Shown: positions 5,252 to 64,000 of the stretch, piece by piece
Position numbering within the stretch: the first letter of the stretch is position 1
How the letters are laid out: the number at the start of each line of letters is the position of its first letter
Origin: an uncultured delta proteobacterium
GTDB lineage: Bacteria > Desulfobacterota > Desulfomonilia > UBA1062
Assembly (NCBI GenBank): GCA_963798485.1
Contig: CAWCTR010000007.1
Coordinates: forward strand, 32,001 to 96,000
Direction of reading: 5' to 3'
DNA: 64,000 nucleotides
Notes under the pieces: generated by a model
Database searches by the model: none
What the model was told of the DNA's origin: nothing
Seen by the model: only the letters and a program-made list of their open reading frames with translations
Position numbers and translations under genes: made by a program

Positions 5252-5787
5252 ACGCCTGTTCGCGCGAAAACGAAGTGAGGGAACTTGTGGAGCGGGGCCA
5301 GTGGCCGCAGGCCTGCGCACCCGAGCTGCGCGCGCACGTTGACAGCTGCCGCTCCTGCGCTGATCAAGTACTGATAACAACCGCGTTTCGAAGGGCCCGC
5401 GCAGAAGCTGTCGCAGGCGTCACGCTACCTCCTCCGGGCGTCCTCTGGTGGCGCGCACAACTGCGAAGGCGTAACGCAGCGGTTGAGCGCATTGGCAGGC
5501 CGATCCTGGGAGCGCAGATCTTCGCCCTTGCAATCAATCTCATGTTGGCGGTTGCCTTCATCCTGTGGCAAGCCCGCCATGGCCTTGCCTGGCTCTCATG
5601 GTTTTCATCGACTGCGGGCCCTGCGCACAGTCCGCAGGCGGTGTTTCATCTTGACTCTCTCTGGTCTCCTCAGTTGCTCAGTTCCGGACTCAACTCAATG
5701 ACGAGCCCACTTGTGCTGATTCCCGCCATTGCCACACTGCTGTTGCTCGGCGGCGTGGTTGTCTATCTGGCTACTGAAAAACAGTAA
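5245..5787 (+). CDS. putative zinc-binding (ZAS) membrane anti-sigma factor
   Basis: overlaps the sigma gene stop; HxxxCxxC motif (HVDSCRSC) followed by 2 TM helices. Confidence 0.75.
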   Translation: MLNACSRENEVRELVERGQWPQACAPELRAHVDSCRSCADQVLITTAFRRARAEAVAGVTLPPPGVLWWRAQLRRRNAAVERIGRPILGAQIFALAINLMLAVAFILWQARHGLAWLSWFSSTAGPAHSPQAVFHLDSLWSPQLLSSGLNSMTSPLVLIPAIATLLLLGGVVVYLATEKQ

Positions 5788-46331: not shown

Positions 46332-46647
46332 GTCGTTCCTTTGAGAGCCCCGCGGCCGTGCTTCAGGCTGCGGAGCTGTTCGCGGATTGCCGTGCTCATT
46401 TGCTCCGACCCAGCGGGCGGTGCAACCATCGGAGTCAAATGCAAATTGTTCTCGCTTTTCTGTGCATCCTGCACATCCCACAGAAGTTGGATGACTCTAA
46501 GCATCCGTTAAGCAGAACCTTGATAAAATTGGTTGATGTTTGCCCCATGAGGGTCGGGTAGGTGGTCAAGGTCCGGCGCGCCGCCGCTGGATTCACTTCT
46601 CGGAGGGCTCACTCGCCAGGTGACAGCGGCACGGAGAAATAGAACTG

Positions 46648-48413
46648 ATGCAACCGGGATCAACAAAGCCATTTTCCTACGAGACCTTTCCGAACGCCGG
46701 CCACGTCGCGTACTTCTCGATGGAGATCGCGATCCATCCCTCCATGCCGACCTATTCGGGCGGCCTTGGCGTCCTGGCTGGAGACACGCTGCGCTCCGCG
46801 GCCGACCTTGGCATTCCCCTGATCGCCTTTTCGCTCATACATCGCAAGGGATATTTCCAGCAGCATCTTGATCGCTCAGGCGTGCAGAGTGAAGAAGTTC
46901 AGCCCTGGGATCCGGCGGACTTCTGCACGGAAGAATCGGCGCGGGTCACCGTCTCCATTGAAGACCGCATCGTTACCGTGCGCGCCTGGCGCTACGACAT
47001 GAAGGGCCGCTCCGGCCACGTGGTGCCCATCTACCTGCTGGACACGGATGTGGACGGCAACTCGGGATGGGATCGCGGCCTCACCGATCATCTTTACGGC
47101 GGCGACACGAATTACCGCTTGCAGCAGGAGATTGTTCTCGGCATGGGCGGCGTCGCGCATGGCGCACGCGCTCGGCTACCGGATCAACGTCTACCACATG
47201 AACGAGGGCCACGCCGCGCTGCTGACTCTGGCGCTGCTGGAGCGCCAGCTGGGCGGCGGACCGCTGGGCGCGGCCACTGAAGCCGACATTGAGCAGGTGC
47301 GCAAGAAGTGCGTCTTCACTACGCATACGCCGGTACCGGCCGGCCACGATCGCTTCTCAATTGAGCAGTCTATTCGCATCCTCGGCGGCGACCGTACGGC
47401 GCGCCTTGAGAAGCAGGGCTGTTTTCGCGACGGTCTGCTGAACATGACGCTGCTGGCGCTGCGCTTTTCCCGCTACGCCAACGGCGTCGCCATGCAGCAC
47501 GGCAAAGTTTCCCGCGAAATGTTTCCCGAGTTCTCCGATCGACTCCATCACCAACGGCGTTCACGCGCCCACCTGGGTGTCGGAGCCCATTCAGCAGATG
47601 CTCGATGAGCACATTCCCGCATGGCGGCGCGACAACCTCTATCTGCGCAATGCAATCGATCTGCCTGAAACAAAGATCCAGGCCGCGCATGCTCGTGCCA
47701 AAGAGGCGTTGTTTACAGAGGTAGCTACGCGCACAGGCCTGGTGCTCAATCCAAAAGTGCTTACACTGGGCTTTGCCCGCAGGGCTGCCACGTACAAACG
47801 TGCCAACTTGTTGTTTACCGACCCAGAGCGCCTACTCAGGATTGCCAACGCTGCTGGCGGCTTGCAGATTCTCTACGCCGGCAAGGCGCATCCCCAGGAC
47901 GAGCCCGGCAAGGCGCTCATCCAGCAGGTTGTGGAAGAGGCTGCCAGCTTTTCTGGCGACGTTCTGCGCGTCGTCTATCTCGAAAACTACGCCTGGGACC
48001 TGGGCGCCTTGCTGACTGCCGGCGTGGACGTATGGATCAACACCCCCAAGCGGCCCTACGAAGCTTCGGGGACCAGCGGCATGAAGGCCGCCCTCAATGG
48101 CGTTCCCAGCCTTTCAATTCTCGACGGCTGGTGGATTGAGGGATGCATCGAGGGCTATACGGGGTGGGCGATTGAAGACGGCGCCAGTGACGCAGAGGAA
48201 GCTGAATCGCTCTACGTCAAGCTCGAATCCGCCGTGGTTCCGCTCTATCTTCAGGCGCCCGAAAAGTGGGCGCGCCTCATGCGCAACACCATCGCCTTCA
48301 ACGGCTCCTATTTCAACACCAATAGGATGGTGAAGCAGTACACGCGCAACGCCTACTACCCTGTCAAGCTCGTCGATCAGGTTCCCGTCCGCGAAGAAGT
48401 CTTCGCGGACTAA
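46648..48413 (+). CDS. glgP: alpha-glucan phosphorylase, short form; 2 frameshifts
   Basis: YFSME, YSGGLGVLAGD, HMNEGH, FTTHTPVPAGHD, ITNGVH, GFARRAATYKR, AGKAHP, EASGTSGMK. Confidence 0.93.
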
Positions 48414-48419
48414 GGAGTC

Positions 48420-51080
48420 CTAAGAGTACAACCGAATCTCGCTTGACGTTCCACCCGCGGCAGGAATGTAGCACTTCTGCGTGTAATCCATCACCATGCG
48501 GTCGGCATTGAAGCGCCATCCTAGCGTGCGAATGGTCCGCTTCATCCGTTTGATCCAGCCACGCGGCAGCCCGTCCCGGTCGCGCTGGTAGAAGAGCGGA
48601 ATCACTTCGTCGTGCAGCACCCGGTAAAGATCTTCTCCATCGCGGCTGTCGTGGACATCCATGTTTGAGTGGGTTCTGCCTCCCCCGATGGCAAAGCCGT
48701 TCAAGCCGTCATAGGCTTCCGCCCACCAGCCATCGAGAACTGATAGGTTCAAGCCTCCATTGAGCACAACTTTTTGTCCGCTCGTGCCCGAGGCCTCCAG
48801 CGGCCTCCTTGGATTGTTCAGCCACACGTCCACGCCCTGCACCAGGTAGCGGCCCACGTTGATGTCGTAGTCCTCAATGAAAACCAGCTTGGTCTGGAAC
48901 TTCGAGTCGCGCATCAACTCCGCAATCTGCTGCAGCACGCGCTTGCCCGGTTCGTCATGTGGATGCGCCTTACCGGCAAACAGAAACTGCACCGGCCGCT
49001 TGGGATCGTTCACCATCGAGACAAGCAGTTCAATATCGCTCAGCACCAGGTTGGCTCGCTTATAGGTGGCAAATCGCCGCGCAAATCCGATAGTCAAGGC
49101 GTCGGGCGAAAGAATCTTGCTCAGCTTCTGCAGCGACTCGGCCGGCTCCTTGCGGCGTTCCGCCTGTTCCTTTGCCCGCCGCCGCGCAAAATCGATCAGC
49201 TGTGCCTTCAGGCTCAGGTGCGTCTCCCACAATTCGCCGTCCTCAACGGTCTCAATCTTTTCCCAGGTCTTTGGCCAACTGCTGTGATGCTGCCAGCCGA
49301 CCCCCAGATGTCGATCGTAGAGTCGGCACATCTGCGGCGCCAACCACGAGGGTACGTGAACTCCATTGGTGATGTGACCGATGGGCACGGCGTCTTCAGG
49401 ACGGCCCGGATAAAGGCACTTCCACATGGCTCTCGAAACTTCTCCATGCAGCGACGAAACGGCATTCACGCGCCGCGCCAGCTTAAGGCCAAGCACCGTC
49501 ATGCAGAAGCTCTCTCCATAGTCGGTGGGATACTCTCGGCCGAAGCCCATCATATTTTCATGAGAAATGCCGAGCTGATCGCGCAGCGGGCCCAGGTGCT
49601 CTTCCATTAGGTCCGCACTGAAGCGGTCGTGACCCGCAGGCACCGGTGTGTGCGTGGTAAAAATCACTTCGCGCGGAATCAGGCTGGCGGCCGTAGCAAA
49701 GTCGAGGCCCTCCTCCACCATGCGATCGCGGATTGCTTCGAACACCACAAATCCGCTGTGTCCCTCATTCAAATGCAGCACGCCGGGCGCAATGCCCATG
49801 GCCTTCAAAGCGCGGAAGCCGCCGATGCCAAGCAGCAGTTCCTGGCGGATGCGCGTCCGCGCGTCCCCGCCATACAGCCGCGATGTGGTCTGCAGATCTT
49901 CAGGCGCGTTGCCGGCCACGTTCGAGTCCAGCAGGAACAGGTCGCACCGGCCAACCTTCATGCGCCACACCTTGGCCCGGATGATCCCGCTCCTGGTCGC
50001 AATCTCCACCACCACCGGTTCGCCGTTCGCCCCGATCGCCGGCTGCATCGGCAACTTGTGCACATCGGTTTCCACGTACTCTTCGCGCTGCCAGCCCGTC
50101 TCGTCCAGCCGCTGCAGAAAGTATCCCTGCCCGTAAAACAAGCCGACGCCAATCAGCGGAATCCCCAGGTCAGACGCGCTCTTGATGTGGTCGCCGGACA
50201 GCACGCCCAGCCCGCCCGAGTAAATAGGCAGCGACTCGTGCATCCCGAACTCAGCTGAAAAATAAGCAATCGGGCGAGGGCGCAGAACTCCCGCATTCGC
50301 CGCGCCCCACGTGCGGTCCGCGTTCAGATACTCCTGCTGGCGCCGATACACGTAATTGATTCTGCTGTGAAGCACCAACTCCGCGGCCCGGCGTTCAATC
50401 TCGCCCAACGGCATCTCGCTCAGCAGCGAGATGGGATTCTGATTCAGCTCGCGCCATCGCTTCGGATTCAAATCCCGGAACAGGCTAATGCAGTCATGGT
50501 CCCAGCTCCACCACACGTTATTCGCTAGCGCCCACAGCCGCTCCTGTGCCGGAGCGATAAAGCGTGCCAGCGTGCGCGCCTCACTCACTACCGGCGCCAC
50601 CTGCGCAGCCGCTTCAGACAGCATGTGCACCTCGTTTTCCCGGTAGGCACGCGGATCCTTGGTTTGCACCACAAGAACCCCCTGAAGCACGCCATGGTGG
50701 ATTAAGGGAACGCCGAGAAACGAATGGTACTGGTCTTCGCCGGACTCGCTGAAGTATTTGAAGCGGGGATGGTTTCTTACATCGTCGACCGCAACCGGCA
50801 TCACCTGCTCGGCCACCAGGCCTGAAAGCCCTTCATTCAACGGCATGCGCAATGTGCCGATGCTCTTGGGGTGCAGGCCGAGCGTCGCTGCCAATACGAG
50901 GTTCGATCGATCCGGCTCAAGCAGGTAGGCCGAGCACACATCGGTTCTGAACCGCTTGGCAATCAGCGCGACCACATTCATCAGGGTGTCGGCGGGCTTT
51001 CCCCCTTCCGCGGCAAGGTTTGAAATCTCCTCAACAGTCAAAACAAGATTGGCGTCGTTTGCCTCGTAGGGTTCAGTCAT
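48420..51080 (-). CDS. glgP: alpha-glucan (glycogen/maltodextrin) phosphorylase with N-terminal PtsP-like GAF domain
   Basis: uninterrupted 886-aa ORF; residues ~12-165 GAF; then LANNVWWSW, YFSAEFG, YSGGLG, HLNEGH, GFARRFATYKR, EASGTSGQK. Confidence 0.93.
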   Translation of the reverse strand: MTEPYEANDANLVLTVEEISNLAAEGGKPADTLMNVVALIAKRFRTDVCSAYLLEPDRSNLVLAATLGLHPKSIGTLRMPLNEGLSGLVAEQVMPVAVDDVRNHPRFKYFSESGEDQYHSFLGVPLIHHGVLQGVLVVQTKDPRAYRENEVHMLSEAAAQVAPVVSEARTLARFIAPAQERLWALANNVWWSWDHDCISLFRDLNPKRWRELNQNPISLLSEMPLGEIERRAAELVLHSRINYVYRRQQEYLNADRTWGAANAGVLRPRPIAYFSAEFGMHESLPIYSGGLGVLSGDHIKSASDLGIPLIGVGLFYGQGYFLQRLDETGWQREEYVETDVHKLPMQPAIGANGEPVVVEIATRSGIIRAKVWRMKVGRCDLFLLDSNVAGNAPEDLQTTSRLYGGDARTRIRQELLLGIGGFRALKAMGIAPGVLHLNEGHSGFVVFEAIRDRMVEEGLDFATAASLIPREVIFTTHTPVPAGHDRFSADLMEEHLGPLRDQLGISHENMMGFGREYPTDYGESFCMTVLGLKLARRVNAVSSLHGEVSRAMWKCLYPGRPEDAVPIGHITNGVHVPSWLAPQMCRLYDRHLGVGWQHHSSWPKTWEKIETVEDGELWETHLSLKAQLIDFARRRAKEQAERRKEPAESLQKLSKILSPDALTIGFARRFATYKRANLVLSDIELLVSMVNDPKRPVQFLFAGKAHPHDEPGKRVLQQIAELMRDSKFQTKLVFIEDYDINVGRYLVQGVDVWLNNPRRPLEASGTSGQKVVLNGGLNLSVLDGWWAEAYDGLNGFAIGGGRTHSNMDVHDSRDGEDLYRVLHDEVIPLFYQRDRDGLPRGWIKRMKRTIRTLGWRFNADRMVMDYTQKCYIPAAGGTSSEIRLYS

Positions 51081-51356
51081 CGGTATGCGCTAGCCTTTCG
51101 AATGAGAAATGAAGTAAACCGCATCGACACGTGTGCCGCGCCGCGACAAGTGTGCAGTGATTCAGGCAATGAAAATGCGAAGTTTAAAGCGGTTAGTGCT
51201 GACTGCTGGGTCTCAGGGAAAAATCCCAAGGTTCGCGGAGCGGGATTATTTCGACAATATCATCAATCCGCCGGAAACAGCGAATCGGTCTCACGCAGCC
51301 AGGTTTGCCGGTGCAGCAATTGCGAGGAATCTCCGGCCTGAAGCGGTCCTTCTTCC

Positions 51357-54300
51357 TCAGTCTCCCGGAGCCTCACCCAGCTCCACGCCGACCTTTTGCA
51401 GCTTCATCACTTTCCACTGCAAACGGTCGAAAAAGAGGTAAACCACCGGTGTGGTAAAGAGCGTGAGCGCCTGTGAAACCAGAAGCCCGCCGACGATGGT
51501 GATGCCTAGCGGCTTGCGCAGCTCTGAGCCGACGCCCATGCCGATTGCCAGCGGCATACCGCCGAAGAGTGCTGCCATCGTCGTCATCATGATGGGGCGG
51601 AAGCGCAGCAGACAGGCCTGATAAATCGCCTCAACCGGTGGCAGTCCCTGCTCGCGCTCGGCCTGGAGCGCGAAATCGATCATCATGATCGCGTTCTTCT
51701 TCACAATGCCGATCAGCAGGATAATGCCGATCAGGGCAATGATGCTCAAATCGGTTCCCGTGATCAGCAACGCGAGAATGGCGCCCGCGCCGGCCGGCGG
51801 CAGCGTGGACAGAATGGTCAGCGGATGGATCAGGCTCTCATAAAGAATGCCAAGCACGATGTAAACGGCCACCAGCGCGGCCAGAATCAGATATGGCTCG
51901 TTTTTCAGCGAGTCCTGAAATGCCTGCGCCGTTCCCTGGAAGCTCGGATGAATCGTCGAAGGCATGCCCATCTCGCGCTGCGCCTGTTCCAGAGCCGTCA
52001 CCGCATCGCCAAGCGCAACGTTGGGAGCCAGATTAAAGGTCAGCGTCACCGCGGGATATTGTCCCTGGTGATTGACCGCCAGCGAAGTGTGGTGGTTTTC
52101 ATAGTGAGCGATGGTTGACAGCGGCACCATTGCGCCGCTCGCCGACTTGATGAAGATGCCGTTCAACGCGTCCGGGCTGCGCTGGTATTGCGGATCCACC
52201 TCCATCACAACAAAATACTGGTTCAGCCCGGTGTACATCGTCGACACTTCCCGCTGGCCAAAAGCGTCGTAAAGCACTGAGTCGATCATTGCGGCCGTAA
52301 TCCCCAGCCTCGAAGCCGTATCCCGGTCGATCACCAGGTTTGTCGCCAGACCCTGGCTTTGCTGATCGGTGGAGACGTCGGCAAGCTGCGGCATCTTCCT
52401 TGCCCGTGCCTCCAGTTGCGGAGCCCAGCGTGTTCAGCTCATTCAGATTCTCGTCTGAAAGCGTGTACTGGTACTGTGCTGAGCTGCCGCGGCCGCCAAC
52501 CTGAATGTCCTGCTGGGCCTGCAGAAAGAGTGTTGCGCCGGGAACGCTGGTCAGCTTGCGCCGCAACCGCGCCACCACCTGGTCGGCTGAGACCCTTCCC
52601 GGCCGATCGCTCAGCGGCTTCAGCGCAAGAAACATGCCGCCTGTGTTGCTGCCGCCGCCGCCGGGCGCCGCCGCCCACAAACGCCGTCACCGATTGCACT
52701 GCCGGATCTTCGATCGTCATCTGCGCCAGTTGCCGTTGCTTTCCTTCATCGCATCGAAGGCAATATCCTGCGCAGCGATCGTCCGTCCGCCCAGCCGCCC
52801 CGTGTCCTGCTGCGGAAAGAAGCCCTTGGGCACGATGATGTAGAGGTAAACGTTCAACGCAGCGGTGCCAACCGCCACACCCAGAATGAGCCACTGGTGG
52901 CGCAGCACCCAGCGCAATCCGGCGTGCGTATTCGTTGTGCAACCAGTTGAAGGCGCTTTCGCTGGCCCGATAGATGCGCCCATGCCGGTTTTCGTCCCGC
53001 GACTTGAGAAAACGGGCGCAAAGCATCGGCGTCGTGGTCAGCGACACCAGCATCGAAACGGCAATCGCCACCGAAAGCGTGACCGCAAACTCGCGAAACA
53101 GCTTGCCCACAATCCCGCCCATCAGCAGGATGGGCGTAAACACGGCGATCAGCGAGGTGCTCATCGAGAGCACGGTAAATCCGATCTCCTTCGACCCCTT
53201 CATCGCGGCTTCATAAGGCTCCATGCCCATTTCCAGGTAGCGCGTGATGTTCTCAATCACCACAATCGCGTCGTCCACCACAAACCCCGTCGCTACGGTC
53301 AGCGCCATCAGCGAGAGATTGTCGATGGTGTAGCCGACCAGGTACATCACGCCGAACGTGCCCAGCAGCGACAAGCGGCACGGCCACTGAGGGAATAATG
53401 GTGGCCCATACCTCGCGCAAAAACATGAAGACCACCAGCACAACCAGCATCACGCTGATCATCAGCGAGATCTCCACATCGTGGACGCTGGAGCGAATGG
53501 TGACGGTGCGGTCCACAGCCACGTTGATCTTGATCGTCGGCGGAATGGCCGCCTGCAGGTGAGGCATCTCGGCCATCACGTTGTCCACGGTCGAGATCAC
53601 GTTCGCGCCTGGAATCTTGAACACCAACAGCATGATCGCGTCTTCAGTTGCCCGGCGGACCTTTGATCGGATTGATGCCGGCCACGCCGCCGTGTCAGAA
53701 TGTTCGACACGCTGTCGGTCACAGTGCCCAGATCGCCCACGCGCACCGCGCGCCGGTCTGCTTGTTATACCCGGCGATGATCGGCGCGTAGTCCTGGGCT
53801 TTGAAGATCTGGTCGTTGTCGTAGATGGCCCAGCGGTTTTGCGCGTCCTGGAATGCGCCTTTTGGCCGATTGGCATTCGCTCCGGACAGCGCCGTGCGCA
53901 CCGCCTCAAGACCAATGCCGTTGTTGGCCAGCTGCATCGGGATTCAGCTCAACGCGCACAGCGGGGCTCGAGCTGCCGCCCACAAACACCTGGCCAACAC
54001 CCTGCGATCTGCGCCATCTTCTGCGCCAGGATCGAGTCGGCCATGTCGTATATCTGCGGCTTCGGCACCACATCCGAGGTCAGCGTCAGGATCAGGATCG
54101 GCGCGTCAGCCGGATTCGCCTTCCGGTAGCTTGGATTCTGTGGCAGGTATGAGGGCAACTGACTGCGCGCCGCGTTGATGGCCGCTTGCACGTCGCGCGC
54201 CGCTGCGTTGATGTCGCGATTGATGTCGAACTGCAGGGTTACGATTGCCGAGCCCAGCGAGCTTGACGAGGTCATCTGGTTCACGCCGGCGATGCGCCCG

Positions 54301-54512
54301 AACTGCCGCTCCAGCGGCGTCGCCACAGCCGATGCCATCGTCTCCGGGCTCGCGCCGGGCAAGCCAGCGCTGGCGCCGATCACCGGAAAATCCACGTCAG
54401 GCAGCGAGGCCACCGGCAGCACCGTGTAGGCCACGGAGCCCGCCAGCAGCAGGGCCAGGCTCAGCAGCGAGGTGGCTACCGGCCGCTTAATGAATGGTGC
54501 GGAAAGATGCAT
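51357..54512 (-). CDS. mdtC: RND efflux permease, MdtC-like; several frameshifts
   Basis: [56 protein letters not shown]. Confidence 0.88.
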
Positions 54513-54524
54513 GGTTCCTGGTCC

Positions 54525-57500
54525 TCAGTCCTTAGTCCGCACTGACCGGCTCGGTTCTCGTAGCCGCGCCAGCAGTTCGCGCGGCTTCAAGCGCTGCGCC
54601 AGCTTGTCGAAGTAGAGATAGACGACCGGCGTGGTAAAGAGCGTGAGCATCTGCGACAAGATCAGGCCGCCGACAATGGTGACGCCCAGCGGCATGCGCA
54701 GCTCGGCGCCCACGCCGCCGCCCAGGGCCAGCGGCAGACCGCCCAGCAGCGCGGCCATGGTGGTCATAATGATCGGCCGGAAGCGCAGCAGGCAGGCCTG
54801 GAAGATCGCGGCCTTCGGCGGTCTTGCCCTCATCGCGCTCGGCCTGCAGCGCAAAGTCGATCATCATGATGGCGTTCTTCTGCACGATGCCGATCAGCAG
54901 AATCATGCCGATCAGCGCAATCACGCTGAAGTCCACGCGCGTGATCAGCAGCGCAAGCAGCGCGCCCACGCCCGCCGACGGCAGCGTGGAAATGATCGTG
55001 ATCGGGTGAATGTAGCTCTCGTAGAGCACGCCCAGCACGATGTAGACGGTGATGAGCGCCGCCAGAATCAGGATCGGTTCGTTGGCCAGCGAAGTCTGGA
55101 AGGCGGCTGCCGTTCCCTGGAAGCTGGCGTTGATGCTGGCCGGCATCTGGATCCGCTGCTCGGCTGCTTTGCACGGCGTTACAGCGTCGCCCAGCGACTT
55201 GCCCGGCGCCAGGTTGAAGCTGACGATGGTTGACGGGAACTGGCCCTGGTGGCCGATCGACAGTTCGGCATGGCCCTGTTCCCAGTGCGCCAACATGGCT
55301 TAGCGGAACCTGCGTGCCGTTGCGCCGACTTGACGTAGAGAGTGTTCAGCGTCGCCGGATCGGTCTGGAAGTTCGCCCCCACTTCCATCACCACGTGGTA
55401 CTGGTTCAGCTGGGTAAAGATGGTCGACACCTGGCGCTGGCCAAACGCGTCGTACAGCGTGTTGTCCACGTCGGCCATGGCAATGCCAAGCCGGGCCGCG
55501 GTGTCGCGATCGATCACAAGCTGCGGCACTCAGCCCCTGGTCCTGCAGATCGCTGGCAACATCGGTCACCACGTTTTCTTTGCTCAGCTCGGTCACCATC
55601 TTGCGGGTGTACGTCGCCAGTTCGTTCTGGTCCGGATCTTCGAGGGCGTATTGGAATTCAGTGCGGCTGACGCGATCTTCCACCGTCAGATCCTGAAGCG
55701 GCTGCAGAAAAAGCTGGATGCCCTCAACTGCATTCACCTTGCTCTGCATGCGCTGAATCACTTCCGTCGCGGAGACCTTGCGCACATCCAGCGGCTTCAG
55801 CGTGATCTGGATGCGTCCCGAGTTCAGCGTGGTGTTGGTGCCGTCCACGCCGATGAACGACGAGACGTTGTCCACGGCCGGATCCTGCAGAACCACGTCG
55901 ACAAGCTTCTGCTGGCGCTGCGCCATGCTGGTAAAGCTCACCGTCTGCGGCGCTTCGGAGATGCCAAGAATCACGCCCGTATCCTGCACCGGGAAGAAGC
56001 CCTTGGGAATCACGATGAACAGAAGTACCGTGGCCACAAAGGTTGAAATCGTCACAATCAGCGTGGCAAAGCGATGGCGCAGAATCACCTGTCAGCGCGC
56101 GCCCATAGGAGGCGATGATCGGCGTTGAAGACCTTCTCTGACCAATGGTAGAAGCGGGTCTGCTTGGCTGTCGCCTTGTCCTGCAGAATGCGCGAGCACA
56201 TCATCGGCGTAAGCGTCAGCGAGACCACCGCCGAAACCAGAATCGTGACCGCCAGCGTGATGGCGAACTCGCGGAACAGCCGCCCCACCACGTCGCTCAT
56301 GAACAGCAGCGGAATGAGCACCGCGATCAGCGAAACGGTCAGCGACATGATGGTGAAGCCGATCTGTTCGCTGCCCTTGAGCGCCGCCTGCATCGGGCTC
56401 ATGCCCTCTTCAATGAAGCGCGAGATGTTCTCGATCATCACGATGGCGTCGTCCACCACAAAGCCGGTGGAGATGGTGAGCGCCATCAGCGTCAGGTTGT
56501 TCAGCGAGTAGCCCAGCAGGTACATCACGCCGAAGGTGCCCACGATCGACAGCGGCACCGCGACCGAAGGAATGATGGTGGCCGCAAGGTTGCGCAGGAA
56601 AAGGAAGATGACCATCACCACCAGGGCGATGGTGAGCATCAGCTCAAATTCCACGTCCCTGACCGAAGCGCGGATGGTCGTGGTGCGGTCGGTAAGCACC
56701 TTCACCTGGACCGAGGCCGGCAGGCTGGCCTGCAACTGCGGCAGCAGCGTGTGGATGCGGTCGACAACGGCAATGATGTTGGCGCCCGGCTGCCGCTGGA
56801 TATTCACGATGACCGCGGGCGTGCGGTCCATCCAGGCGGCCTGCTGGTTGTTCTCAGCGGCATCCACAATCGTCGCCACATCGGAGGCGCGCACCGGGGC
56901 CCCGTTGCGATAGGCAATCACCACCGGCTTGTAATCGGAGCTCGAAAGCAACTGATCGTTCGCGCCGATCGTGTACGACTGGCGGCTGCCGTTCAGTGTT
57001 CCCTTGGCCTGGTCCACATTGGCCGCCGCAATCGCCGTGCGCAGATCCTCAAGGCTCAGGTTGTAGGCCGCCAATTGCGCCGGATTGGCCTGGATGCGCA
57101 CCGACGGCTTTTGCCCGCCCGCAATTGACACCAGCCCAACGCCCGTCACCTGCGAGATCTTCTGCGCCAGGTTGGTGTCGGCCGCGTCTTCAATCTTGTC
57201 CAGCGGCAACGAATCGGAGGTCAGCGCCAGCGTCATGATCGGCGCGTCGGCCGGGTTCACCTTGCTGTAAATGGGTGGATTGGGCAGATCGGATGGCAGA
57301 AAGCTGTTGCCGGCATTGATGGCCGCCTGCACCTCCTGCTCGGCAACATCGATGTTCTCGTCCAGGTTGAATTCGAGCGTAATCACCGAGCCGCCGCCGG
57401 AACTGACTGAAGTCATCTGCTTCAGGCCCGGCATCTGGCCAAACTGCCGCTCCAGCGGCGCCGTCACCGACGAGGACATCACCTCCGGCCCGGCGCCCGG

Positions 57501-57659
57501 ATAGAACGTCAGCACCTGGATGATCGGGTAATCCACCTCAGGCAGAGCGGAAACCGGCAACTGCTCATAGGCGACGCCGCCCGCAAGCAGAATCGCCGCC
57601 ATCAGCAGCGAGGTCGCTACCGGGCGCAGAATAAAGGGCCGGGAAGGACTAAGGCTCAC
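54525..57659 (-). CDS. mdtB: RND efflux permease, MdtB-like; several frameshifts
   Basis: [53 protein letters not shown]; GTG start overlaps the mdtA TGA. Confidence 0.88.
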
Positions 57660-59011
57660 TGCTGCTCCTTGTGTTTGATGTTTCCCTGCCGCCTGTCCGT
57701 TCGCACTGCGCCTGCATTGCTCGCACCCTGACCTTGCCCCTGTCCTGAACTGCGTGCCCGGCGCCCTGGCCTGCCGCCCGCCCGCTGCCGGCTCTGGCTC
57801 ACCGTCACCTGGCGCTCCCTGCCGCAGCCGGTCGGCGCCGTCCACAACCACCTTCTCGCCCGCCGTAACCCCGCTATCCAGAATGGTCACCTGTCCCTGG
57901 GCAAGGGCAACCTTCACCGGCTGCATCTGTGCGGTCGTGGCTCCCTTGGCGTCGGTATTCACCGTCCACACAAACGATCCCTGCAGCCCGTTCTGGATCG
58001 CCGCCGACGGAACCACCAGCGCATTGGGCCGGTCTTCCATCACCAGGTGGATATTCACAAACTGGTTCGGAAACAGCGCCTCGTTCTCGTTGTTGAACAC
58101 CGCTTTCAGCTTGGCGGTGCCGGTCGTCGTGTCGATCTCGTTGTCGGCGGTCAGCAGTTGACCGGTCGCCAGCTTCTGCACATCGCCCTGGTCGTAGGCA
58201 TCCACGGGCATGCGCTTGTCAGCCTTCAGCTTGGCAAGCACCTGCGGCAGCTGATTCTCCGGCAGCGTAAAGTACACCGCGATCGGCCGGAACTGGTTGA
58301 TGATCACAAGGTTAGTCGTGTTCGCCGTGATAATGTTGCCGGGGTCCACCAGCCGCAATCCAATGCGTCCGTTGATGGGCGACTGAATGTAGCACCAGTT
58401 CAATTGCAACTGGGCATTCTCGATCGCCGCCTTGTCTGACTCGATGGCGCCCTGGTACTGGCCCTGCTGGGCCTCGTCGGCATCCATCGTCTCCTTTGAC
58501 ACCACGCCCGCCGCGTAAAGCGCCTTGTAACGGGCATACTCGGCCTGCGCGTTTTTCAGCAGCGCCTCATCGTGGGCCAGCGTGCCTTTGGCCTGGTCCA
58601 GGGCCGCCTGGTAGGGCCTCGGGTCGATCACCATGATGGTCTGGCCCTGCTTCACCTCCTGGCCCTCGGTAAACTTCACGGGCAGCAACTGGCCGCTCAC
58701 CCGCGCCTTCACCGTTACGCTCATGTAGGGCATCACTGTGCCCAGGGCAGTCAGGTAAATGGGCATCGGCTGCTGCGCCACCGGAACCACCTGCACCGGA
58801 ACCGGCCGGTTCATCAGCGCCGCCGCCTGGCTGGTGCTGGCCGCTTCGGCGGCCTGCTGATTCTGGTAGATCCGCCACCCGACGAACGCACAATGCCCCG
58901 ATGACAACGCGTAAATAATCACGCGGATCCAGATTCTTTTTCGGCGAGCGCGGCTCCGCGTGAATTGTCGATTTCGGACTGCTGGGACTCCTGAGTGCCT
59001 TCAATGGACAT
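57656..59011 (-). CDS. mdtA: RND periplasmic adaptor, MdtA-like; frameshifted at both ends
   Basis: [59 protein letters not shown]; start approximate. Confidence 0.88.
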
Positions 59012-59421: not shown

Positions 59422-59663
59422 ATGAAAGTGCTCATCTTCGGGGCAAGCGGCATGGTCGGCCAAGGGGTTCTTCGCGAGTGTCTGCTTAGCCCCGACGTTG
59501 AGTTGGTGGCCACCATTGGTCGGACCCCGGCCCCCAGTCCACTGCCCGGGTCGCAGCCAGCCGCCTGGCGCCAGATCCACCATTCCAATCTGAGCGATCT
59601 CACCGGCCTCCGGGCCGAACTTACAGGCTTCGATGCCTGCTTCTTTACGCTTGGCGTCTCGTC
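59422..59663 (+). pseudogene. truncated NAD(P)-dependent epimerase/dehydratase (N-terminal ~80 aa only)
   Basis: MKVLIFGASGMVGQGVLRECL...GFDACFFTLGVSS Rossmann start; family similarity and high GC both end at ~59,663. Confidence 0.8.
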
Positions 59664-60735
59664 AATTGAAACTGACTATCAAACCCGTAATAAACTCCAA
59701 TGGAAGGACGTACAGAAAAAGCTATTCCCATCCGGGACTCCAACAAGGGCGATATGGGAACAGAGAGACATAATTATCGATATTATGCAGCAACTTTCAG
59801 AGACCGATGACCTGAACCATATGTTTCTCCCAACAGGCGGTGGCATGAATTTGCTCGGTGCCAGATGCTCCTACGAAGAAGGCTGTATAGAATTGGATGT
59901 CGGGATGGCAATAATATTGAAACCCAAACGACTTGTTTTTGAATCATTCAATTTTGAGGAAGAATGGAACTACTTTCGACTTGAAACGAGCAGGCTTTCT
60001 CCGAGTGGCTATTATGATGAAGTTACAATTAGGGAAGCATTAACAGAACTGGAACCATTGATCTACACAGATTTCATGTGCTTTGAATTCAATGATTATA
60101 ATGGGCAAGACCTGCCACGAGGAGCCAGACAAATTGATCGAATGCTGGCCGAGGTAAGTTTTGTTATATTTCAAAATTCATCCATGTACAGTAATATTGC
60201 GGCGACATATGATGCTCGGCACAATAAAATGACTACGGATGAATTCAGGACCTACATCGGGAACACAGTGAGACATATCTCCGGCACCATGAATAACATT
60301 CCAGAACAAAGCGAGGCCATAACATTATGTAGACCGTCCTCTTTTAAGTTGAAGCAGAGACTCCTGACAAGCAAAGAGATAGTGTTATTAAGAGACGTAG
60401 CCTCATTGGCAAGGGAACGTAAAGTCGAGGAATTGGAGTTACTTGAAAAATCTGGCATGGGTACCTTTATTGACTTGCTTAATACCGACTTTTTTTCTGC
60501 GCCCCGTCCAAAATCCGATCGCTTGAAAGACTACCTGAGAAACCTTCCCCAAGAACAAATCGTGTTGATAGCCGCTGTCATGTATGGCGGTCGGGAAGGC
60601 ACTCCTCCTCTATGGGGAACACCACTGGACGAGTTAATTATGGACCTTCAGAATCGACCTAATCTCATACTGTCAATTTGCGAAAAACTGCCTCTGGCAG
60701 ACTACATAGAGAGAGGAATCACAATCTATACGTGA
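59664..60735 (+). CDS. AT-rich 3' fragment of a foreign gene: probable Ser/Thr kinase C-terminal region plus DUF3775-like tail
   Basis: NHMFLPTGGG...EWNYFRLE...YDARHNKM..DEFR.YI is recalled from C-termini of bacterial Ser/Thr kinases; tail LKDYLRNL...AAVMYGGR...PLADYIERGI resembles DUF3775; no kinase core is present. Confidence 0.5.
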
Positions 60736-60788
60736 ACGCATCTCCATGGCATCGACCGGACGGTTTACAGAAATAAAAAATTAGAAAT

Positions 60789-60833
60789 AAAAGGGGACGT
60801 TTCGAAATAAAAGGCGAAAAAAGGGGACGTTTC
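60789..60833. repeat. 15-bp direct repeat (AAAAGGGGACGTTTC x2, 30-bp period)
   Basis: exact copies at 60789-60803 and 60819-60833, with GAAATAAAA motifs nearby. Confidence 0.85.
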
Positions 60834-61062
60834 TATTATTGATTCTTAGTTTTAACCACCATCTAACCCCGATGATTGAAGGGATTTTCAGGAGAAACAA
60901 ATATATCGACAGCCCACCTTTACTTATGCAATTTGGCACTGATATGGATGTACCCGGATTATGCAGATTACTGATATGAGTGCCAGCTTGACTTATCATG
61001 ATCTGACAGTTAACACATAATAATCCTTTAAGAGTTATATCCACCCATGAAGGAGCCAGATT

Positions 61063-61647
61063 ATGCGACATCCTGTATACGCACACCCTATGATCATTCT
61101 CATGTGCCTTTTCCTGGTACTCGGGTGCTCGAAGAAAGAAGAGCCCATCCAGACACCGGCGCCGCCACAGCAGGCTGTTACTACGCCCAAGGATGCTGCC
61201 CAAAAATCCCAACTCGACAAGGCCATGTTGATCCATAAGGATTTTGTTAAGGCCTTTTCCGAAACACTGGGCAAAGAAGACACATCGGACACGCTCCGAT
61301 CCAGGATAGACCTGGTCGACAAGACCCGCATTGCCTGCATGATGCTCAGGGCGGATATTCATGACCCGGTGGCTGCGGACTTTCTCATCAGATTCTCAGA
61401 CGGCCTCCAGAAATATCTGGATCTCGCGAATAAGCACCTTGCCACCCTTGAAGAGGCAGCCGGCCAATATGCTTCCGGCAAGGAATCCGAAGCAAACCTG
61501 TCCAAGGTACCCGAGAAAGAGAAGGAAGAGGCCACAGCGAGGCTCAATTCTCTCATAACGAAGCATAACGAACTCGTGCAGGGTCCTTTGAAGAAGGAAC
61601 AGGACGATCTCAACAGCCTGGGATATGAGCTGTTGAGATTCAAGTAG
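61063..61647 (+). CDS. helical lipoprotein of unknown function
   Basis: aaggag RBS; lipobox LVLGC followed by a low-complexity linker. Confidence 0.75.
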   Translation: MRHPVYAHPMIILMCLFLVLGCSKKEEPIQTPAPPQQAVTTPKDAAQKSQLDKAMLIHKDFVKAFSETLGKEDTSDTLRSRIDLVDKTRIACMMLRADIHDPVAADFLIRFSDGLQKYLDLANKHLATLEEAAGQYASGKESEANLSKVPEKEKEEATARLNSLITKHNELVQGPLKKEQDDLNSLGYELLRFK

Positions 61648-62162: not shown

Positions 62163-62819
62163 ATGCCGCCGAATGCGGAGCTCGAAGCGATTCGTAAGGC
62201 CCAGATCATCGATGCCGCCTTGCAGACCATTACCGCAAGAGGGTGTGCAAATGTCACCATGGACGACATCTGCAAGACAGCCGGCCTTTCCAAGGGAGGT
62301 CTCGCCCACTATTACAAATCCAAAAACGACCTCTTCAAGGCCGCGTTCCAGGAATTCTTCCAACGCATCTTCGTTAGGGGCGATGAAACCATGTCTACCT
62401 TCGATGACCCCCTGGCGCAGGTCCTTTCCTTTGAATGGCTCTACAATGCCGAAGACCCTGATGTCGATACCGGATATCCCATCCTTTATGACTTCATGTC
62501 CATTGCCGTACACGACCAGGAATACCGGGAGATCTTCAGCGACTGGATCAACAACTGGGTCAAGCTCCTGAAAAAGGCCATCCTCCAGGGCCAGGCCCAG
62601 GGACGGTATATGAATGTGGATGCCGAGTCTGCAGCACGCACCATATCGGCCATCTACCAGGGGATAGCCACCCGCTGGTACCTTGCCCGCGGTGAGCATC
62701 CCACCACATGGGCCGTCGATAGTCTCAGGAGGTCCGTCAAAGGACTCCTGGATTCATATGAAGGCCCAATCACACAGGAAAGGAGGAAGGCAAAGACAAT
62801 AAAAAAATTGCGGAAATAA
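62163..62819 (+). CDS. TetR-family regulator (BetI-like C-terminus)
   Basis: RKAQIIDAALQTI...TMDDICKTAGLSKGGLAHYYKSKNDL; ggaggt RBS. Confidence 0.93.
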   Translation: MPPNAELEAIRKAQIIDAALQTITARGCANVTMDDICKTAGLSKGGLAHYYKSKNDLFKAAFQEFFQRIFVRGDETMSTFDDPLAQVLSFEWLYNAEDPDVDTGYPILYDFMSIAVHDQEYREIFSDWINNWVKLLKKAILQGQAQGRYMNVDAESAARTISAIYQGIATRWYLARGEHPTTWAVDSLRRSVKGLLDSYEGPITQERRKAKTIKKLRK

Positions 62820-63370: not shown

Positions 63371-64000
63371 ATGAGCATTGAGAGAACCCTCAAACAATTC
63401 GAGGAGGACCGCAAGGATGCGGTGCACCTGGCAGCCAGGCTGCTCCTGGCATCGGCGGTTACCTCGCCGCGTGTAGGCGGCGTGGGCGAGTGCACGGTCC
63501 ATATCGTGGATGACGAGTGCGACATCGAGGATCTCTGCCAGGCCATCGAGGAAATCAGCAAAGAGAACAAGTCCTGGGAATTCTTCATGCGGGATGCAGC
63601 CATGCTCCGTGATGCCGATGCAGTGCTGGTGGTGACCTCTCTGCGGAGCCTCACCGACCCGTCCGATATCAATTGTAATCTGTGCGGGAAGCTCACCTGC
63701 GAGTATTTGCGCAAGGAGGACAAGCTCCCTGCCGAGCCCGGTATTGCCTTCACAGGGCCGCTGTGCACGTTCAGGGCCATGAACATCTCATACGCCATCG
63801 ACGGCATCGTGTCGCTGGCACGCAACTTAGGGATCGATTACGGGGTGTACTGGTCGGCAGGGGTTGCAGCCATGAGGATGGGAATCCTGCCCAAGGCCAC
63901 GGGGTTCGCACTGGCCGTGGCCATCTCGGTAACGGAGAAGAGCCCCTTCAGGGACATCCCCGTCAAGTACAGCGAGATCAACGAGCGGACCATGAACGAC
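63371..64000 (+). CDS. DUF2148-like Fe-S protein (runs off window; absent from the ORF track)
   Basis: hand translation from ATG 63371 (aggagg RBS): AARLLLASAVTSPRVGG...FMRDA...NCNLCGKLTC...FTGPLC...SAGVAA...SVTEKSPFRD. Confidence 0.75.
   Translation, partial: MSIERTLKQFEEDRKDAVHLAARLLLASAVTSPRVGGVGECTVHIVDDECDIEDLCQAIEEISKENKSWEFFMRDAAMLRDADAVLVVTSLRSLTDPSDINCNLCGKLTCEYLRKEDKLPAEPGIAFTGPLCTFRAMNISYAIDGIVSLARNLGIDYGVYWSAGVAAMRMGILPKATGFALAVAISVTEKSPFRDIPVKYSEINERTMND

What the first reader, a model, noticed from the sequence alone, without database searches (positions are those of the whole stretch)
48420..51080. Glucan phosphorylase fused to a PtsP/EI-Ntr-like GAF sensor: candidate metabolite-gated glycogen mobilisation enzyme
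Seen in sequence: one uninterrupted 886-aa ORF, intact although neighbouring genes are frameshifted. Its first ~165 aa (about 50,585-51,050) are a GAF domain that runs directly into a complete phosphorylase with the PLP-lysine motif EASGTSGQK. The GAF reads DVCSAYLL...LVLAATLGL...LRMPLNEGLSGLVAEQ..PVAVDDV.NHPRFKYFSESGEDQYHSFLGVPLIHHGVLQGVLVVQ, which by eye closely follows the N-terminal GAF of PtsP (EI-Ntr). Established: the EI-Ntr GAF reports nitrogen status through glutamine/2-oxoglutarate, and typical bacterial GlgP/MalP enzymes lack such a domain. Inference: this enzyme may couple glycogen breakdown allosterically to C/N status in a single polypeptide. I know of no characterised example, but I cannot check novelty here.
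Basis: partly seen in the sequence, partly recalled or inferred. Interest (0 to 1): 0.72.

Follow-up and report, generated by a model that had tools for sequence, protein, structure and literature searches.

The report
Glycogen phosphorylase with PtsP-type GAF sensor
This intact gene joins a small-molecule sensor domain, of the kind bacteria use to gauge nitrogen status, to a glycogen-degrading enzyme; the fusion is common in soil Acidobacteriota, but no study of it was found.

Summary
Window 48420-51080 (-) is one 886-aa ORF: GAF (about residues 29-171), a short hinge, DUF3417, then a complete TIGR02094 alpha-glucan phosphorylase with the PLP lysine and substrate-contact residues intact.

The fusion is real. 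66 of 80 related loci encode it as one in-frame protein, and no break falls at the junction. Short-read contigs match the gene.

It is not rare. It occurs in hundreds of Acidobacteriaceae genomes, in Vicinamibacterales and Bryobacteraceae, and in one Pirellulales MAG. Databases name it only "alpha-glucan family phosphorylase".

The GAF is of the PtsP (EI-Ntr) type. PtsP GAF structures are its best PDB hits. In a tree, all 30 fused GAFs form one clade nested inside PtsP GAFs. They keep 88% of PtsP signature positions, against 43% for other GAFs. dN/dS (about 0.07) equals that of the catalytic core.

None of six fusion-bearing genomes checked has a GAF-bearing PtsP; five have no Enzyme I.

Metabolite gating (glutamine/2-oxoglutarate) is plausible but untested. 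Eight literature searches found no description.

Side finding: the window lies in a 68-kb, 60%-GC Acidobacteriaceae-like block inside a 52%-GC contig. The neighbours' frameshifts look like assembly errors.

Verdict: a new variant of known parts, of moderate interest.

The parts
48420..51080 (-). Whole 886-aa ORF (stop codon at 48420-48422): GAF-DUF3417-alpha-glucan phosphorylase fusion
   Evidence: 66 of 80 related loci give one full-length in-frame match.
50997..51080 (-). N-terminal leader, residues 1-28: the least conserved part, low model confidence
   Evidence: Mean identity to the window 0.63 over 66 relatives. Residues 1-11 have pLDDT below 50, and the 10-residue blocks covering 11-30 average 55-59.
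50568..50996 (-). PtsP-type GAF sensor domain, residues about 29-171 (Pfam 31-164)
   Evidence: Trees. 34 of 39 PtsP signature positions kept. Model pLDDT 79-92 from residue 31 to 160, falling to 65 at 161-170. dN/dS about 0.067.
50544..50567 (-). Short hinge, residues 172-179, between the last GAF helix (148-171) and the first DUF3417 helix (178-187)
   Evidence: AF2 model: residues 170-175 have pLDDT below 50.
50229..50543 (-). DUF3417 alpha-helical domain, residues 180-284. It lies within the part that aligns to ScGP residues 30-713; I infer that it corresponds to ScGP's oligomer-building alpha-helical domain, which the paper does not equate with DUF3417
   Evidence: Pfam PF11897 E 5.5e-26. 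Aligns to ScGP from its residue 30. Role of the domain in ScGP from PMC12912991 section 6.
48423..50228 (-). GT35 phosphorylase core, residues 285-886, with H477, R668, R669, K674 and the counterparts of the ScGP AMP-site residues (E439, Y673, R744)
   Evidence: TIGR02094 820 bits. 9l6i E 8.5e-173. Residues checked.
48771..48797 (-). PLP-binding motif EASGTSGQK, residues 762-770; K770 corresponds to ScGP K609
51081..51356 (.). Upstream intergenic region, the presumed promoter region. No known RNA family and no tRNA found
   Evidence: Not analysed further.
46633..48413 (+). Convergent neighbour: a short (about 600 aa) unfused alpha-glucan phosphorylase paralog carrying EASGTSGMK. Here it is read in three frames, breaking near 47151/47153 and 47502-47533
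   Evidence: It is intact in the closest relative L017 and in L020 and L028.

Best explanation
The gene encodes a PLP-dependent alpha-glucan (glycogen/maltodextrin) phosphorylase of the TIGR02094 class. This is the 'clade 2' of Shobu et al. 2026 and probably the 'GP1' of the 2026 Nat Commun phylogeny (my inference from the length classes). Its core is of the roughly 715-aa type. A GAF sensor domain derived from the PtsP/EI-Ntr lineage has been joined to its N-terminus. SHOWN: the architecture; catalytic residues all present; the fusion conserved as one ORF across many Acidobacteriota; the GAF nested within PtsP GAFs, keeping their signature residues and under purifying selection as strong as the enzyme's. 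INFERRED: the GAF binds a small metabolite and allosterically tunes phosphorolysis. The likeliest ligands are the ones reported for EI-Ntr GAFs, glutamine and perhaps 2-oxoglutarate. The signal would pass through the short hinge into the adjoining alpha-helical domain. In the nearest solved relative that domain builds the oligomer, and the oligomeric state controls access of glycogen to the active site. This would tie mobilisation of the carbon reserve directly to nitrogen/carbon status in one polypeptide, in organisms that have no PTS-Ntr relay. My odds: functional fused enzyme 0.95; GAF is a regulatory ligand sensor 0.65; the ligand is glutamine and/or 2-oxoglutarate 0.35.
For: - Architecture and scores.
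- Catalytic competence: against S. copri ScGP (9l6i, E 8.5e-173) the residues named in PMC12912991 are all kept: H316, R507, R508, K513 and PLP K609 correspond to H477, R668, R669, K674 and K770.
- Fusion conserved: all 120 listed homologs (86-99% identity) carry GAF+DUF3417+Phosphorylase. Of 80 loci, 66 are single full-length in-frame, 6 are cut by a contig end, and 8 change frame only at residues 293-841. All 10 more distant forms checked by Pfam have the same three domains.
- PtsP kinship: NF008283 E 4.8e-34; 3ci6 and 3trc are the top PDB hits. In the IQ-TREE of 54 GAFs, PtsP and fused GAFs form a 99/98 clade that excludes 8 other GAFs from the same genomes, and the fused forms sit in a 100/99 clade nested behind three starred nodes of PtsP GAFs. 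With 10 more distant fused GAFs, all 30 fall in one clade with SH-aLRT 98.
- Signature: in the 39 columns that are at least 80% conserved in 21 PtsP GAFs, fused GAFs keep 679 of 773 cells (88%) against 131 of 306 (43%) for other GAFs.
- Selection: median dN/dS is 0.067 for the GAF, 0.063 for the core and 0.046 for DUF3417.
- Ligand precedent: passages of PMC4848567 state that glutamine binds the EI-Ntr GAF and inhibits autophosphorylation, and that a GAF point mutant is insensitive.
- Route for allostery: in ScGP the alpha-helical domain assembles the pentamer, and AMP-driven decamer formation restricts glycogen access.
- No PTS relay: none of 6 fusion-bearing genomes has a GAF-bearing PtsP, 5 have no EI at all, and G201 also has no HPr.
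Against: - No binding or activity data exist for any member, so the ligand assignment rests on homology (34% identity to the E. coli PtsP GAF, 57 of 166).
- The residues that contact glutamine in EI-Ntr are not known to me.
- The AF2 model gives a low-confidence hinge (residues 170-175) rather than a rigid signalling helix. No inter-domain confidence is reported, so the coupling geometry is unknown.
- The same GAF type also sits on HAMP-HD and histidine-kinase proteins, so it is a general-purpose module.
- The enzyme lacks ScGP's C-terminal beta-sheet domain, so its oligomer may differ from ScGP's.
- dS is near saturation and every dN/dS pair involves the window, so those values are rough.
Confidence: 0.6

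Rival explanations
1. The GAF is a genuine sensor, but for a ligand other than glutamine/2-oxoglutarate (for example a nucleotide, a cyclic nucleotide, a sugar phosphate or another amino acid). The enzyme would then respond to energy or carbon status rather than nitrogen status.
For: GAF domains as a family bind many ligands; weaker PDB hits include a cGMP phosphodiesterase GAF and heme or redox sensor GAFs. Identity to experimentally studied PtsP GAFs is only about 34-40%. The same GAF type serves HAMP-HD and histidine-kinase outputs. The nearest solved phosphorylase is regulated by AMP.
Against: PtsP-specific positions that are almost never seen in other GAFs of the same genomes (V48, C49, Y52, L85, L88, H104, F110, G123, Q139) are kept in 18-20 of 20 fused GAFs. 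The fused clade nests inside PtsP GAFs. Cyclic-nucleotide GAF structures are only distant hits (E 3e-6 against 5e-27).
Confidence: 0.2
2. The GAF no longer senses anything. It serves as a structural, oligomerisation or partner-docking module on the phosphorylase.
For: The hinge is short and predicted with low confidence. The oligomeric state is the regulated variable in the nearest relative. The enzyme lacks ScGP's C-terminal domain and might need another assembly element.
Against: Retention of 88% of the PtsP signature cells and dN/dS of about 0.07 across the whole domain are more than a scaffold would be expected to need. Unfused 711-736-aa relatives with the same core exist without any such module.
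Confidence: 0.12
3. The fusion is an artefact of assembly or gene calling, and there are really two genes.
For: The window's assembly does contain indel errors in neighbouring genes. The window lies in a compositionally foreign block.
Against: 66 of 80 independent loci give one in-frame ORF, and none of the 8 frame changes lies near the junction. L017 and L018 encode residues 1-290 identically. Short-read contigs cover 48333-50588 with 0-1 differences and no gaps, and X2 record 19 spans 50218-51405. The architecture recurs down to 41-50% identity in other classes.
Confidence: 0.01

Closest known systems
Segatella copri glycogen phosphorylase ScGP ('clade 2' GP; PDB 9L6I and others; Shobu et al., PNAS 2026, PMC12912991)
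   Same: Same TIGR02094-type enzyme: E 8.5e-173 over ScGP residues 30-713. It shares the N-terminal alpha-helical part, the PLP lysine, the substrate-contact residues and the counterparts of the AMP-site residues E278, Y512, R508 and R583.
   Different: ScGP has no GAF, and it carries a C-terminal beta-sheet domain (to residue 852) that is absent here. ScGP's regulator is AMP acting on the catalytic body. The oligomeric state of the window's enzyme is unknown.
PtsP / Enzyme I-Ntr N-terminal GAF domain (E. coli b2829; PDB 3CI6, 3TRC)
   Same: Same GAF subfamily by family model, PDB ranking, phylogeny and signature residues. The GAF sits at the N-terminus of a larger enzyme in both.
   Different: The output domain is a glucan phosphorylase, not a PEP-dependent phosphotransferase. 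There is no phosphorelay, and the carriers checked lack a GAF-bearing PtsP. Ligand binding is untested here.
E. coli glycogen phosphorylase regulated by HPr of the PTS (Di Domenico et al., Nat Commun 2026, PMC13324651; abstract and phylogeny section read)
   Same: A precedent that PTS-linked signals control bacterial glycogen phosphorolysis.
   Different: There the signal arrives in trans, from a separate phosphocarrier protein acting on a classical (GP2) enzyme. Here a PTS-derived sensor domain is fused in cis to a GP1/TIGR02094 enzyme in genomes without HPr or EI.
Chlamydomonas alpha-amylase 2 with an N-terminal ACT domain, activated by glutamine (PMC11190351; title, abstract start and unrelated passages seen)
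   Same: A storage-glucan-degrading enzyme with an N-terminal small-molecule sensor domain in one polypeptide. By its title, glutamine is the activator.
   Different: A different sensor fold (ACT, not GAF), a different enzyme class (hydrolase, not phosphorylase), and a eukaryotic alga.
Database entries 'alpha-glucan family phosphorylase' / 'starch phosphorylase' of Terracidiphilus and other Acidobacteriaceae MAGs
   Same: 86-99% identical, with the same length and the same precomputed Pfam domain list.
   Different: None in sequence terms. These are the same protein family, named only for the enzyme part.

Membership tests
TIGR02094 alpha-glucan family phosphorylase (GT35; 'clade 2' / probably 'GP1') | Score above the curated family cut-off over the full model | tested here: met
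   820.2 bits against a cut-off of 191.7, model positions 1-599 of 600
TIGR02094 alpha-glucan family phosphorylase (GT35; 'clade 2' / probably 'GP1') | PLP-binding lysine in the EASGTSxxK motif | tested here: met
   EASGTSGQK, K770, aligned to ScGP K609
TIGR02094 alpha-glucan family phosphorylase (GT35; 'clade 2' / probably 'GP1') | Substrate and phosphate contact residues (ScGP H316, R507, R508, K513) | tested here: met
   H477, R668, R669, K674
TIGR02094 alpha-glucan family phosphorylase (GT35; 'clade 2' / probably 'GP1') | Phosphorolysis of alpha-1,4-glucan to glucose-1-phosphate | not testable with these tools
   Needs an enzyme assay
GAF domain (Pfam PF01590 / PF13185) | Score above the Pfam gathering threshold, and the GAF fold | tested here: met
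   57.3 and 57.7 bits against 22.4 and 28.6. The AF2 model shows a confident alpha/beta domain from residue 29 to 171.
PtsP / Enzyme I-Ntr (NCBIfam NF008283) | Full-length equivalog score of at least 583 bits | tested here: not met
   117.7 bits, and only model positions 7-175 are matched
PtsP / Enzyme I-Ntr (NCBIfam NF008283) | PEP-utilising N-terminal, mobile and C-terminal domains | tested here: not met
   Absent from the Pfam scan, but present in 14 of 15 PtsP ORFs scanned as a comparison
PtsP-type GAF subfamily (the domain only) | Groups with PtsP GAFs to the exclusion of other GAFs, and keeps their conserved positions | tested here: met
   Clade support 99/98 and SH-aLRT 98. 34 of 39 signature positions kept in the window; 88% in fused GAFs against 43% in other GAFs.
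PtsP-type GAF subfamily (the domain only) | Binds glutamine (and 2-oxoglutarate) with a regulatory effect | not testable with these tools
   The precedent comes only from passages of PMC4848567. The E. coli paper on glutamine/alpha-ketoglutarate was seen as a reference title only and could not be opened.
ScGP-like AMP-regulated pentameric GP | C-terminal beta-sheet domain | tested here: not met
   The alignment stops at ScGP residue 713 of 852, and the window's protein ends 12 residues after the aligned part
ScGP-like AMP-regulated pentameric GP | AMP-site residues (E278, Y512, R508; distal R583) | tested here: met
   E439, Y673, R669, R744. Only the residues named in the paper's main text were checked.
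ScGP-like AMP-regulated pentameric GP | Pentamer, and AMP-induced decamer | not testable with these tools
   Too large for the complex tool. The paper states that AlphaFold 2 and 3 fail to reproduce the ScGP pentamer.

The most novel reading that the evidence does not exclude
A PtsP-type nitrogen-status GAF was captured once by a glycogen phosphorylase and now works as a built-in glutamine/2-oxoglutarate switch on carbon-reserve mobilisation in abundant soil Acidobacteriota that have no PTS at all. That would make it the first glycogen phosphorylase with a covalently attached metabolite-sensor domain, and a relay-free replacement for the PTS-to-phosphorylase control known in E. coli. The same captured GAF was later passed on to HAMP-HD and histidine-kinase signalling proteins.
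Probability: 0.3. Interest if true: 0.72.

Novelty: new variant of a known kind. Interest (0 to 1): 0.55.

Why it matters
Glycogen phosphorylase is the textbook allosteric enzyme. The bacterial regulation described in the papers I read acts in two ways: through effectors binding the catalytic body (AMP), or through a separate protein (HPr).

A dedicated sensor domain fused in cis would be a third mode. It would also give a directly testable link between nitrogen status and carbon-reserve use in Acidobacteriota. These are labelled as soil, peat and permafrost organisms in the records and runs seen here.

The family is large, conserved and free of confounding PTS components, so it is a clean system for asking what ligand PtsP-type GAFs really sense.

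There is a practical point too. At 886 aa the fusion hides inside the '850-900 aa' length class used to sort these enzymes (PMC13324651), so length-based surveys would miss it.

Tried and rejected
- **Phylum-wide search around G000.** Only G000 itself showed the fusion. This misled me at first. It arises because G000 is classified away from the Acidobacteriaceae-like block that holds the window. I re-centred the surveys on G201.
- **Motif-based count of single ORFs.** It gave 53 of 80 because the motif filter was too strict. It was replaced by the position-based count.
- **Representative-library search.** The hits were dominated by fragments. It was useful only for finding junction-spanning and other-architecture relatives, not for counting.
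- **Loci L110 and L111.** My longest-ORF pick took the wrong frame, so both were left out of the trees. FUSfrag_P0198 was dropped because its GAF match was only partial.
- **RNA run X15.** Contigs of 172-234 letters at about 90-97% identity lie on both the GAF and the phosphorylase parts. They come from relatives, and DNA carry-over cannot be excluded, so they do not show expression.
- **No coverage beyond window 59,675 in four runs.** A hole proves nothing on its own. See the noticed items for the one contig that diverges there.
- **tRNA and Rfam scans of the window and block edges.** Nothing was found.
- **Earlier scan notes.** Nothing on this architecture.
- **Lee et al. 2013 (PMC3633653).** It could not be opened.
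- **Mapping Caulobacter EI-Ntr L83.** Not done, for lack of that sequence.
- **Complex prediction and fold search.** Neither was run. The full-length homo-oligomer exceeds the size limit, and the report does not rest on a binding claim.
Full report
**1. The observation**

Window 48420-51080 on the minus strand is one uninterrupted ORF of 886 codons.

- Pfam finds a GAF domain at residues 31-164 (GAF, GAF_2 and GAF_3, all above their gathering scores), DUF3417 at 180-284, and the carbohydrate phosphorylase family.
- NCBIfam places residues 271-872 in TIGR02094, 'alpha-glucan family phosphorylase', at 820 bits against a cut-off of 192. The N-terminus matches the PtsP equivalog model NF008283 over model positions 7-175 at E 4.8e-34.
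- The motif EASGTSGQK sits at residues 762-770.

**2. The fusion is real**

- All 120 listed homologs (86-99% identical, mostly 886 aa) carry the same Pfam set. Several are named 'alpha-glucan family phosphorylase [Terracidiphilus sp.]' or 'starch phosphorylase'.
The best 80 loci are all labelled Acidobacteriaceae, Terracidiphilus, Silvibacterium, Granulicella or similar, at 78-100% identity.
- By tblastn of the whole protein against those 80 loci, 66 give one full-length in-frame match and 6 are cut by a contig end. The other 8 change frame, but only at residues 293-841, never at the GAF/DUF3417 junction.
- Short-read contigs from three DNA runs of one study lie on the gene. X1 records 1-3 cover 48333-50588 with 0-1 differences and no gaps. 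X2 record 19 covers 50218-51405, that is the whole GAF, the junction and the upstream spacer, with 1 difference and 2 gaps whose position I could not see.
- L017 and L018 encode residues 1-290 identically.

**3. Distribution**

- Around a complete Acidobacteriaceae chromosome that carries the fusion (G201, the record of L074), 33 of 151 evenly drawn genomes of its family have a strong match. Of these, 31 span both domains. The count includes one unpublished genome, G523; without it the figure is 32 of 150.
- In 301 evenly drawn genomes of its phylum, 8 have a junction-spanning match (55-81% identity, ORFs of 888-957 aa), 12 match only the DUF3417 part, and none has a GAF-only match at E<=1e-25.
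- Starting from the most divergent junction-spanning fragment (P0210, 43% identical), 20 of the best 80 loci match from the first residues. Their labels are 7 Vicinamibacterales, 8 unspecified Acidobacteriota, 2 Terriglobales, 1 Terriglobia, 1 Bryobacteraceae and 1 Pirellulales (Planctomycetota).
- Pfam confirms GAF+DUF3417+Phosphorylase in 6 of 6 of these that I scanned, and in 4 of 4 intermediate forms.

So the architecture is old, is spread over at least two classes of Acidobacteriota, and has reached at least one planctomycete bin.

**4. The enzyme part**

The closest solved structure is the Segatella copri glycogen phosphorylase ScGP (9l6i and five more entries). It aligns at E 8.5e-173 over ScGP residues 30-713 of 852.

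I read the abstract, section 6 and further passages of the paper behind it (PMC12912991). It describes a 'clade 2' phosphorylase with these properties:
- The alpha-helical domain assembles a pentamer.
- AMP induces a decamer that restricts glycogen access.
- The substrate contacts are H316, R507, R508 and K513, and the PLP lysine is K609.
- The AMP sites involve E278, Y512 and R508, and distally R583.

In the window's protein the aligned residues are H477, R668, R669, K674 and K770, plus E439, Y673 and R744. All are conserved. The protein ends shortly after ScGP position 713, so it lacks ScGP's C-terminal beta-sheet domain.

A second 2026 paper (PMC13324651; abstract and phylogeny section read) sorts its GP1 subfamily into length classes of 850-900, 710-720 and about 550 aa.
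- The core here is of the 710-720 type. Unfused relatives with ORFs of 704-733 aa are 52-57% identical, against 41-46% for the 847-856-aa forms.
- With the GAF added, the protein is 886 aa long and would pass for the long class if sorted by length.
- That paper's main text never mentions GAF. The one supplement file held as text has no hit. Its Supplementary Fig. 17, on extra domains, could not be seen.

**5. The sensor part**

- **PDB.** The top hits for residues 1-188 are the GAF domains of two PtsP proteins (3ci6 at E 5e-27, 3trc at E 9e-25), then a Geobacter 'conserved domain' (3e0y at E 4e-21). Cyclic-nucleotide and redox GAFs follow only at E 3e-6 and worse.
- **First tree.** I built a maximum-likelihood tree of 54 GAF domains. 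The rows were:
  - 13 full-length fused forms and 7 fused fragments;
  - 21 PtsP GAFs, of which 14 came from genome ORFs confirmed as GAF+PEP-utiliser proteins, 6 from metagenomic PtsP proteins, and one from E. coli;
  - a GAF-HAMP-HD protein, a GAF-histidine kinase, and 3 GAF fragments of unknown context;
  - 8 other GAF domains from G000 and G201.
- **What it shows.** PtsP and fused GAFs form one clade (99/98) that excludes the other GAFs. Inside it, the fused forms lie in a 100/99 clade of 24 rows, nested behind three starred nodes of PtsP GAFs.
- **Second tree.** Adding 10 distant fused GAFs (Vicinamibacterales, Bryobacteraceae, Terriglobales, Pirellulales and unspecified Acidobacteriota) puts all 30 fused GAFs in one clade of 34 rows with SH-aLRT 98. 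This is consistent with a single capture of a PtsP-type GAF. The HAMP-HD and kinase GAFs sit inside that clade, which suggests secondary re-use.
- **Nearest PtsP.** The one member of the sister PtsP grade that I traced (P0211) has relatives in Gemmataceae/Planctomycetota MAGs at 47-58% identity. The direction of transfer between the phyla is open.
- **Signature positions.** In the 39 alignment columns where at least 80% of the 21 PtsP GAFs agree, fused GAFs carry the PtsP residue in 679 of 773 cells (88%), and the other GAFs in 131 of 306 (43%). The window keeps 34 of 39. These include V48, C49, Y52, L85, L88, H104, F110, G123 and Q139, which occur in 0-1 of 8 other GAFs.
- **Selection.** Against the window, 66 full-length relatives give a median dN/dS of 0.067 for the GAF, 0.046 for DUF3417 and 0.063 for the core. 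dS is about 1.6, near saturation, and the pairs are not independent, so this is a rough measure.

**6. Genomic setting of the carriers**

- The complete chromosome G201 has no match to Enzyme I beyond the GAF of its own fused phosphorylase and a PEP-synthase-like protein. It has no HPr.
- G201 carries five phosphorylase paralogs: the fusion, an 856-aa and a 627-aa TIGR02094 form, and two weaker matches below the family cut-off that I take to be classical enzymes.
- Of five further carriers, four (two Vicinamibacterales, one Bryobacteraceae, one Acidobacteriaceae) also lack Enzyme I. The Pirellulales bin has two Enzyme I-like ORFs without a GAF.
- So none of the 6 genomes has a GAF-bearing PtsP. 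In these organisms the PtsP-type GAF is attached to the phosphorylase instead.

**7. Mechanism**

*Shown:* a catalytically complete phosphorylase preceded by a conserved PtsP-type GAF.

*From the literature:* passages of PMC4848567 state that glutamine binds the EI-Ntr GAF and inhibits autophosphorylation in S. meliloti, E. coli and C. crescentus, and that a GAF point mutant (L83Q) is insensitive. The 2-oxoglutarate side I saw only as the title of Lee et al. 2013 in a reference list; that paper is not held.

*Inferred:*
- The GAF binds such a metabolite and modulates the enzyme through the adjoining alpha-helical domain. In ScGP that domain sets the oligomeric state and so controls substrate access.
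- The AF2 model (mean pLDDT 84.8, pTM 0.76, alignment of 56 sequences) folds the GAF confidently. It separates the last GAF helix (148-171) from the first DUF3417 helix (178-187) by a short low-confidence hinge at 170-175. The geometry of the coupling is therefore unknown.
- A physiological rationale, from general knowledge: bacteria store glycogen when carbon is in excess and nitrogen is limiting. A glutamine-high/2-oxoglutarate-low signal would then sensibly release the reserve.

**8. Novelty**

Eight full-text searches found no paper describing the fusion:
- 'GAF domain' + 'glucan phosphorylase': 3 papers, none relevant.
- EINtr + 'GAF domain' + glutamine: 10 papers on PTS-Ntr.
- GAF + 'glycogen phosphorylase' + Acidobacteria: 0 papers.
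- DUF3417: 1 paper, an archaeal survey.
- 'alpha-glucan phosphorylase' + GAF: 16 papers, none relevant by title or abstract.
- GlgP + 'GAF domain': 1 paper, a cyanobacterial redox review.
- HPr + 'glycogen phosphorylase' + allosteric.
- The PDB codes.

The 2024 Chem Rev review of prokaryotic alpha-glucan enzymes has no occurrence of GAF, DUF3417, PtsP or Acidobacteria in the 300,000 characters held.

The architecture is nevertheless already recorded by automatic annotation. I class it as a new variant of a known kind: known sensor, known enzyme, uncharacterised combination. Conceptual precedents are HPr control of E. coli GlgP, and, by its title, the glutamine-activated ACT-amylase of Chlamydomonas (PMC11190351).

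**9. Side findings**

- G000's contigs run at 48-54% GC. Contig C7 (642 kb) averages 52%, but C7:24,001-92,000 is about 60% GC, and the window is C7:32,001-96,000.
- The window is collinear with named Acidobacteriaceae loci, at 96.6% identity to L017 over 12.9 kb. The genomes that share G000's assigned genus, family and phylum lack the fusion.
- Contig coverage from the runs stops at about 59,670. One contig (X2 record 24, 817 letters) fits only up to 59,665, with its letters 84-540. No tRNA marks the edges.
- The block is therefore either a chimeric join or a recent transfer. Statements about 'the host' should rest on G201-type genomes, not on G000.
- The neighbours' frameshifts are private to this assembly. 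The short paralog is intact in L017, L020 and L028. Three runs agree on single-base indels at 55295, 55323 and 55524, which lie next to the ORF breaks at 55296/55300 and 55529.

Noticed in passing
window 1-59,670 (G000 contig C7:24,001-91,670): A 68-kb block of about 60% GC lies inside a 642-kb contig of about 52% GC, and the bin's other contigs are 48-54% GC. The block is collinear with Acidobacteriaceae MAG loci (96.6% identity to L017). Genomes sharing G000's assigned genus, family and phylum lack the fusion. Short-read contigs stop at about 59,670, and one 817-letter contig fits only up to 59,665. This is either a chimeric join or a recent transfer; it is not resolved.
   Followed up: partly
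window 51,357-58,922 and 46,633-48,413: The frameshifts in the RND pump genes and in the short phosphorylase paralog are private to this assembly. The closest relative, L017, has the paralog intact. Contigs from three runs agree on single-base indels at 55295, 55323 and 55524, next to the ORF breaks. These are most likely consensus indel errors, not pseudogenes.
   Followed up: partly
window 46,633-48,413 (+): A short (about 600 aa) TIGR02094-type phosphorylase without DUF3417, carrying EASGTSGMK, lies convergent to the fused gene. It is next door in 27 of the 81 sequences checked (the window plus 80 loci), so the pairing is limited to closer relatives.
   Followed up: partly
proteins P0147 and P0212 (metagenomic representatives): The same PtsP-derived GAF also heads a GAF-HAMP-HD protein (67% identical over the 166-column GAF alignment) and a GAF-HisKA-HATPase-receiver hybrid kinase. 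In the trees both sit inside the clade of phosphorylase-fused GAFs, which suggests the captured domain was later passed on to signalling proteins.
   Followed up: partly
G201 (record of L074), whole chromosome: A complete 6.7-Mb Acidobacteriaceae chromosome has five glucan-phosphorylase paralogs (the fusion, 856-aa and 627-aa TIGR02094 forms, and two weaker matches below the cut-off) but no Enzyme I and no HPr.
   Followed up: partly
L144 (record labelled Pirellulales), 2932-5592: A planctomycete-labelled MAG carries the same GAF+DUF3417+Phosphorylase protein (887 aa). Its GAF branches at the base of the fused clade, and the nearest PtsP GAF traced (P0211) also has planctomycete relatives. The phylum of origin of the fusion is open.
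   Followed up: no
window 56,085-58,922 (-): A single 945-aa reading frame combines a membrane-fusion (HlyD-type) part with the first half of an AcrB-type pump. In this error-prone stretch it is probably two genes run together by an indel. Two or three AcrB-type genes follow in tandem down to 51,357.
   Followed up: no
window 62,163-62,816 (+) and 63,371-64,000 (+): Beyond the block edge, in the lower-GC flank, lie a TetR-family regulator and a DUF2148 ferredoxin-domain protein. The ORFs at 59,422-61,647 have no Pfam match.
   Followed up: no
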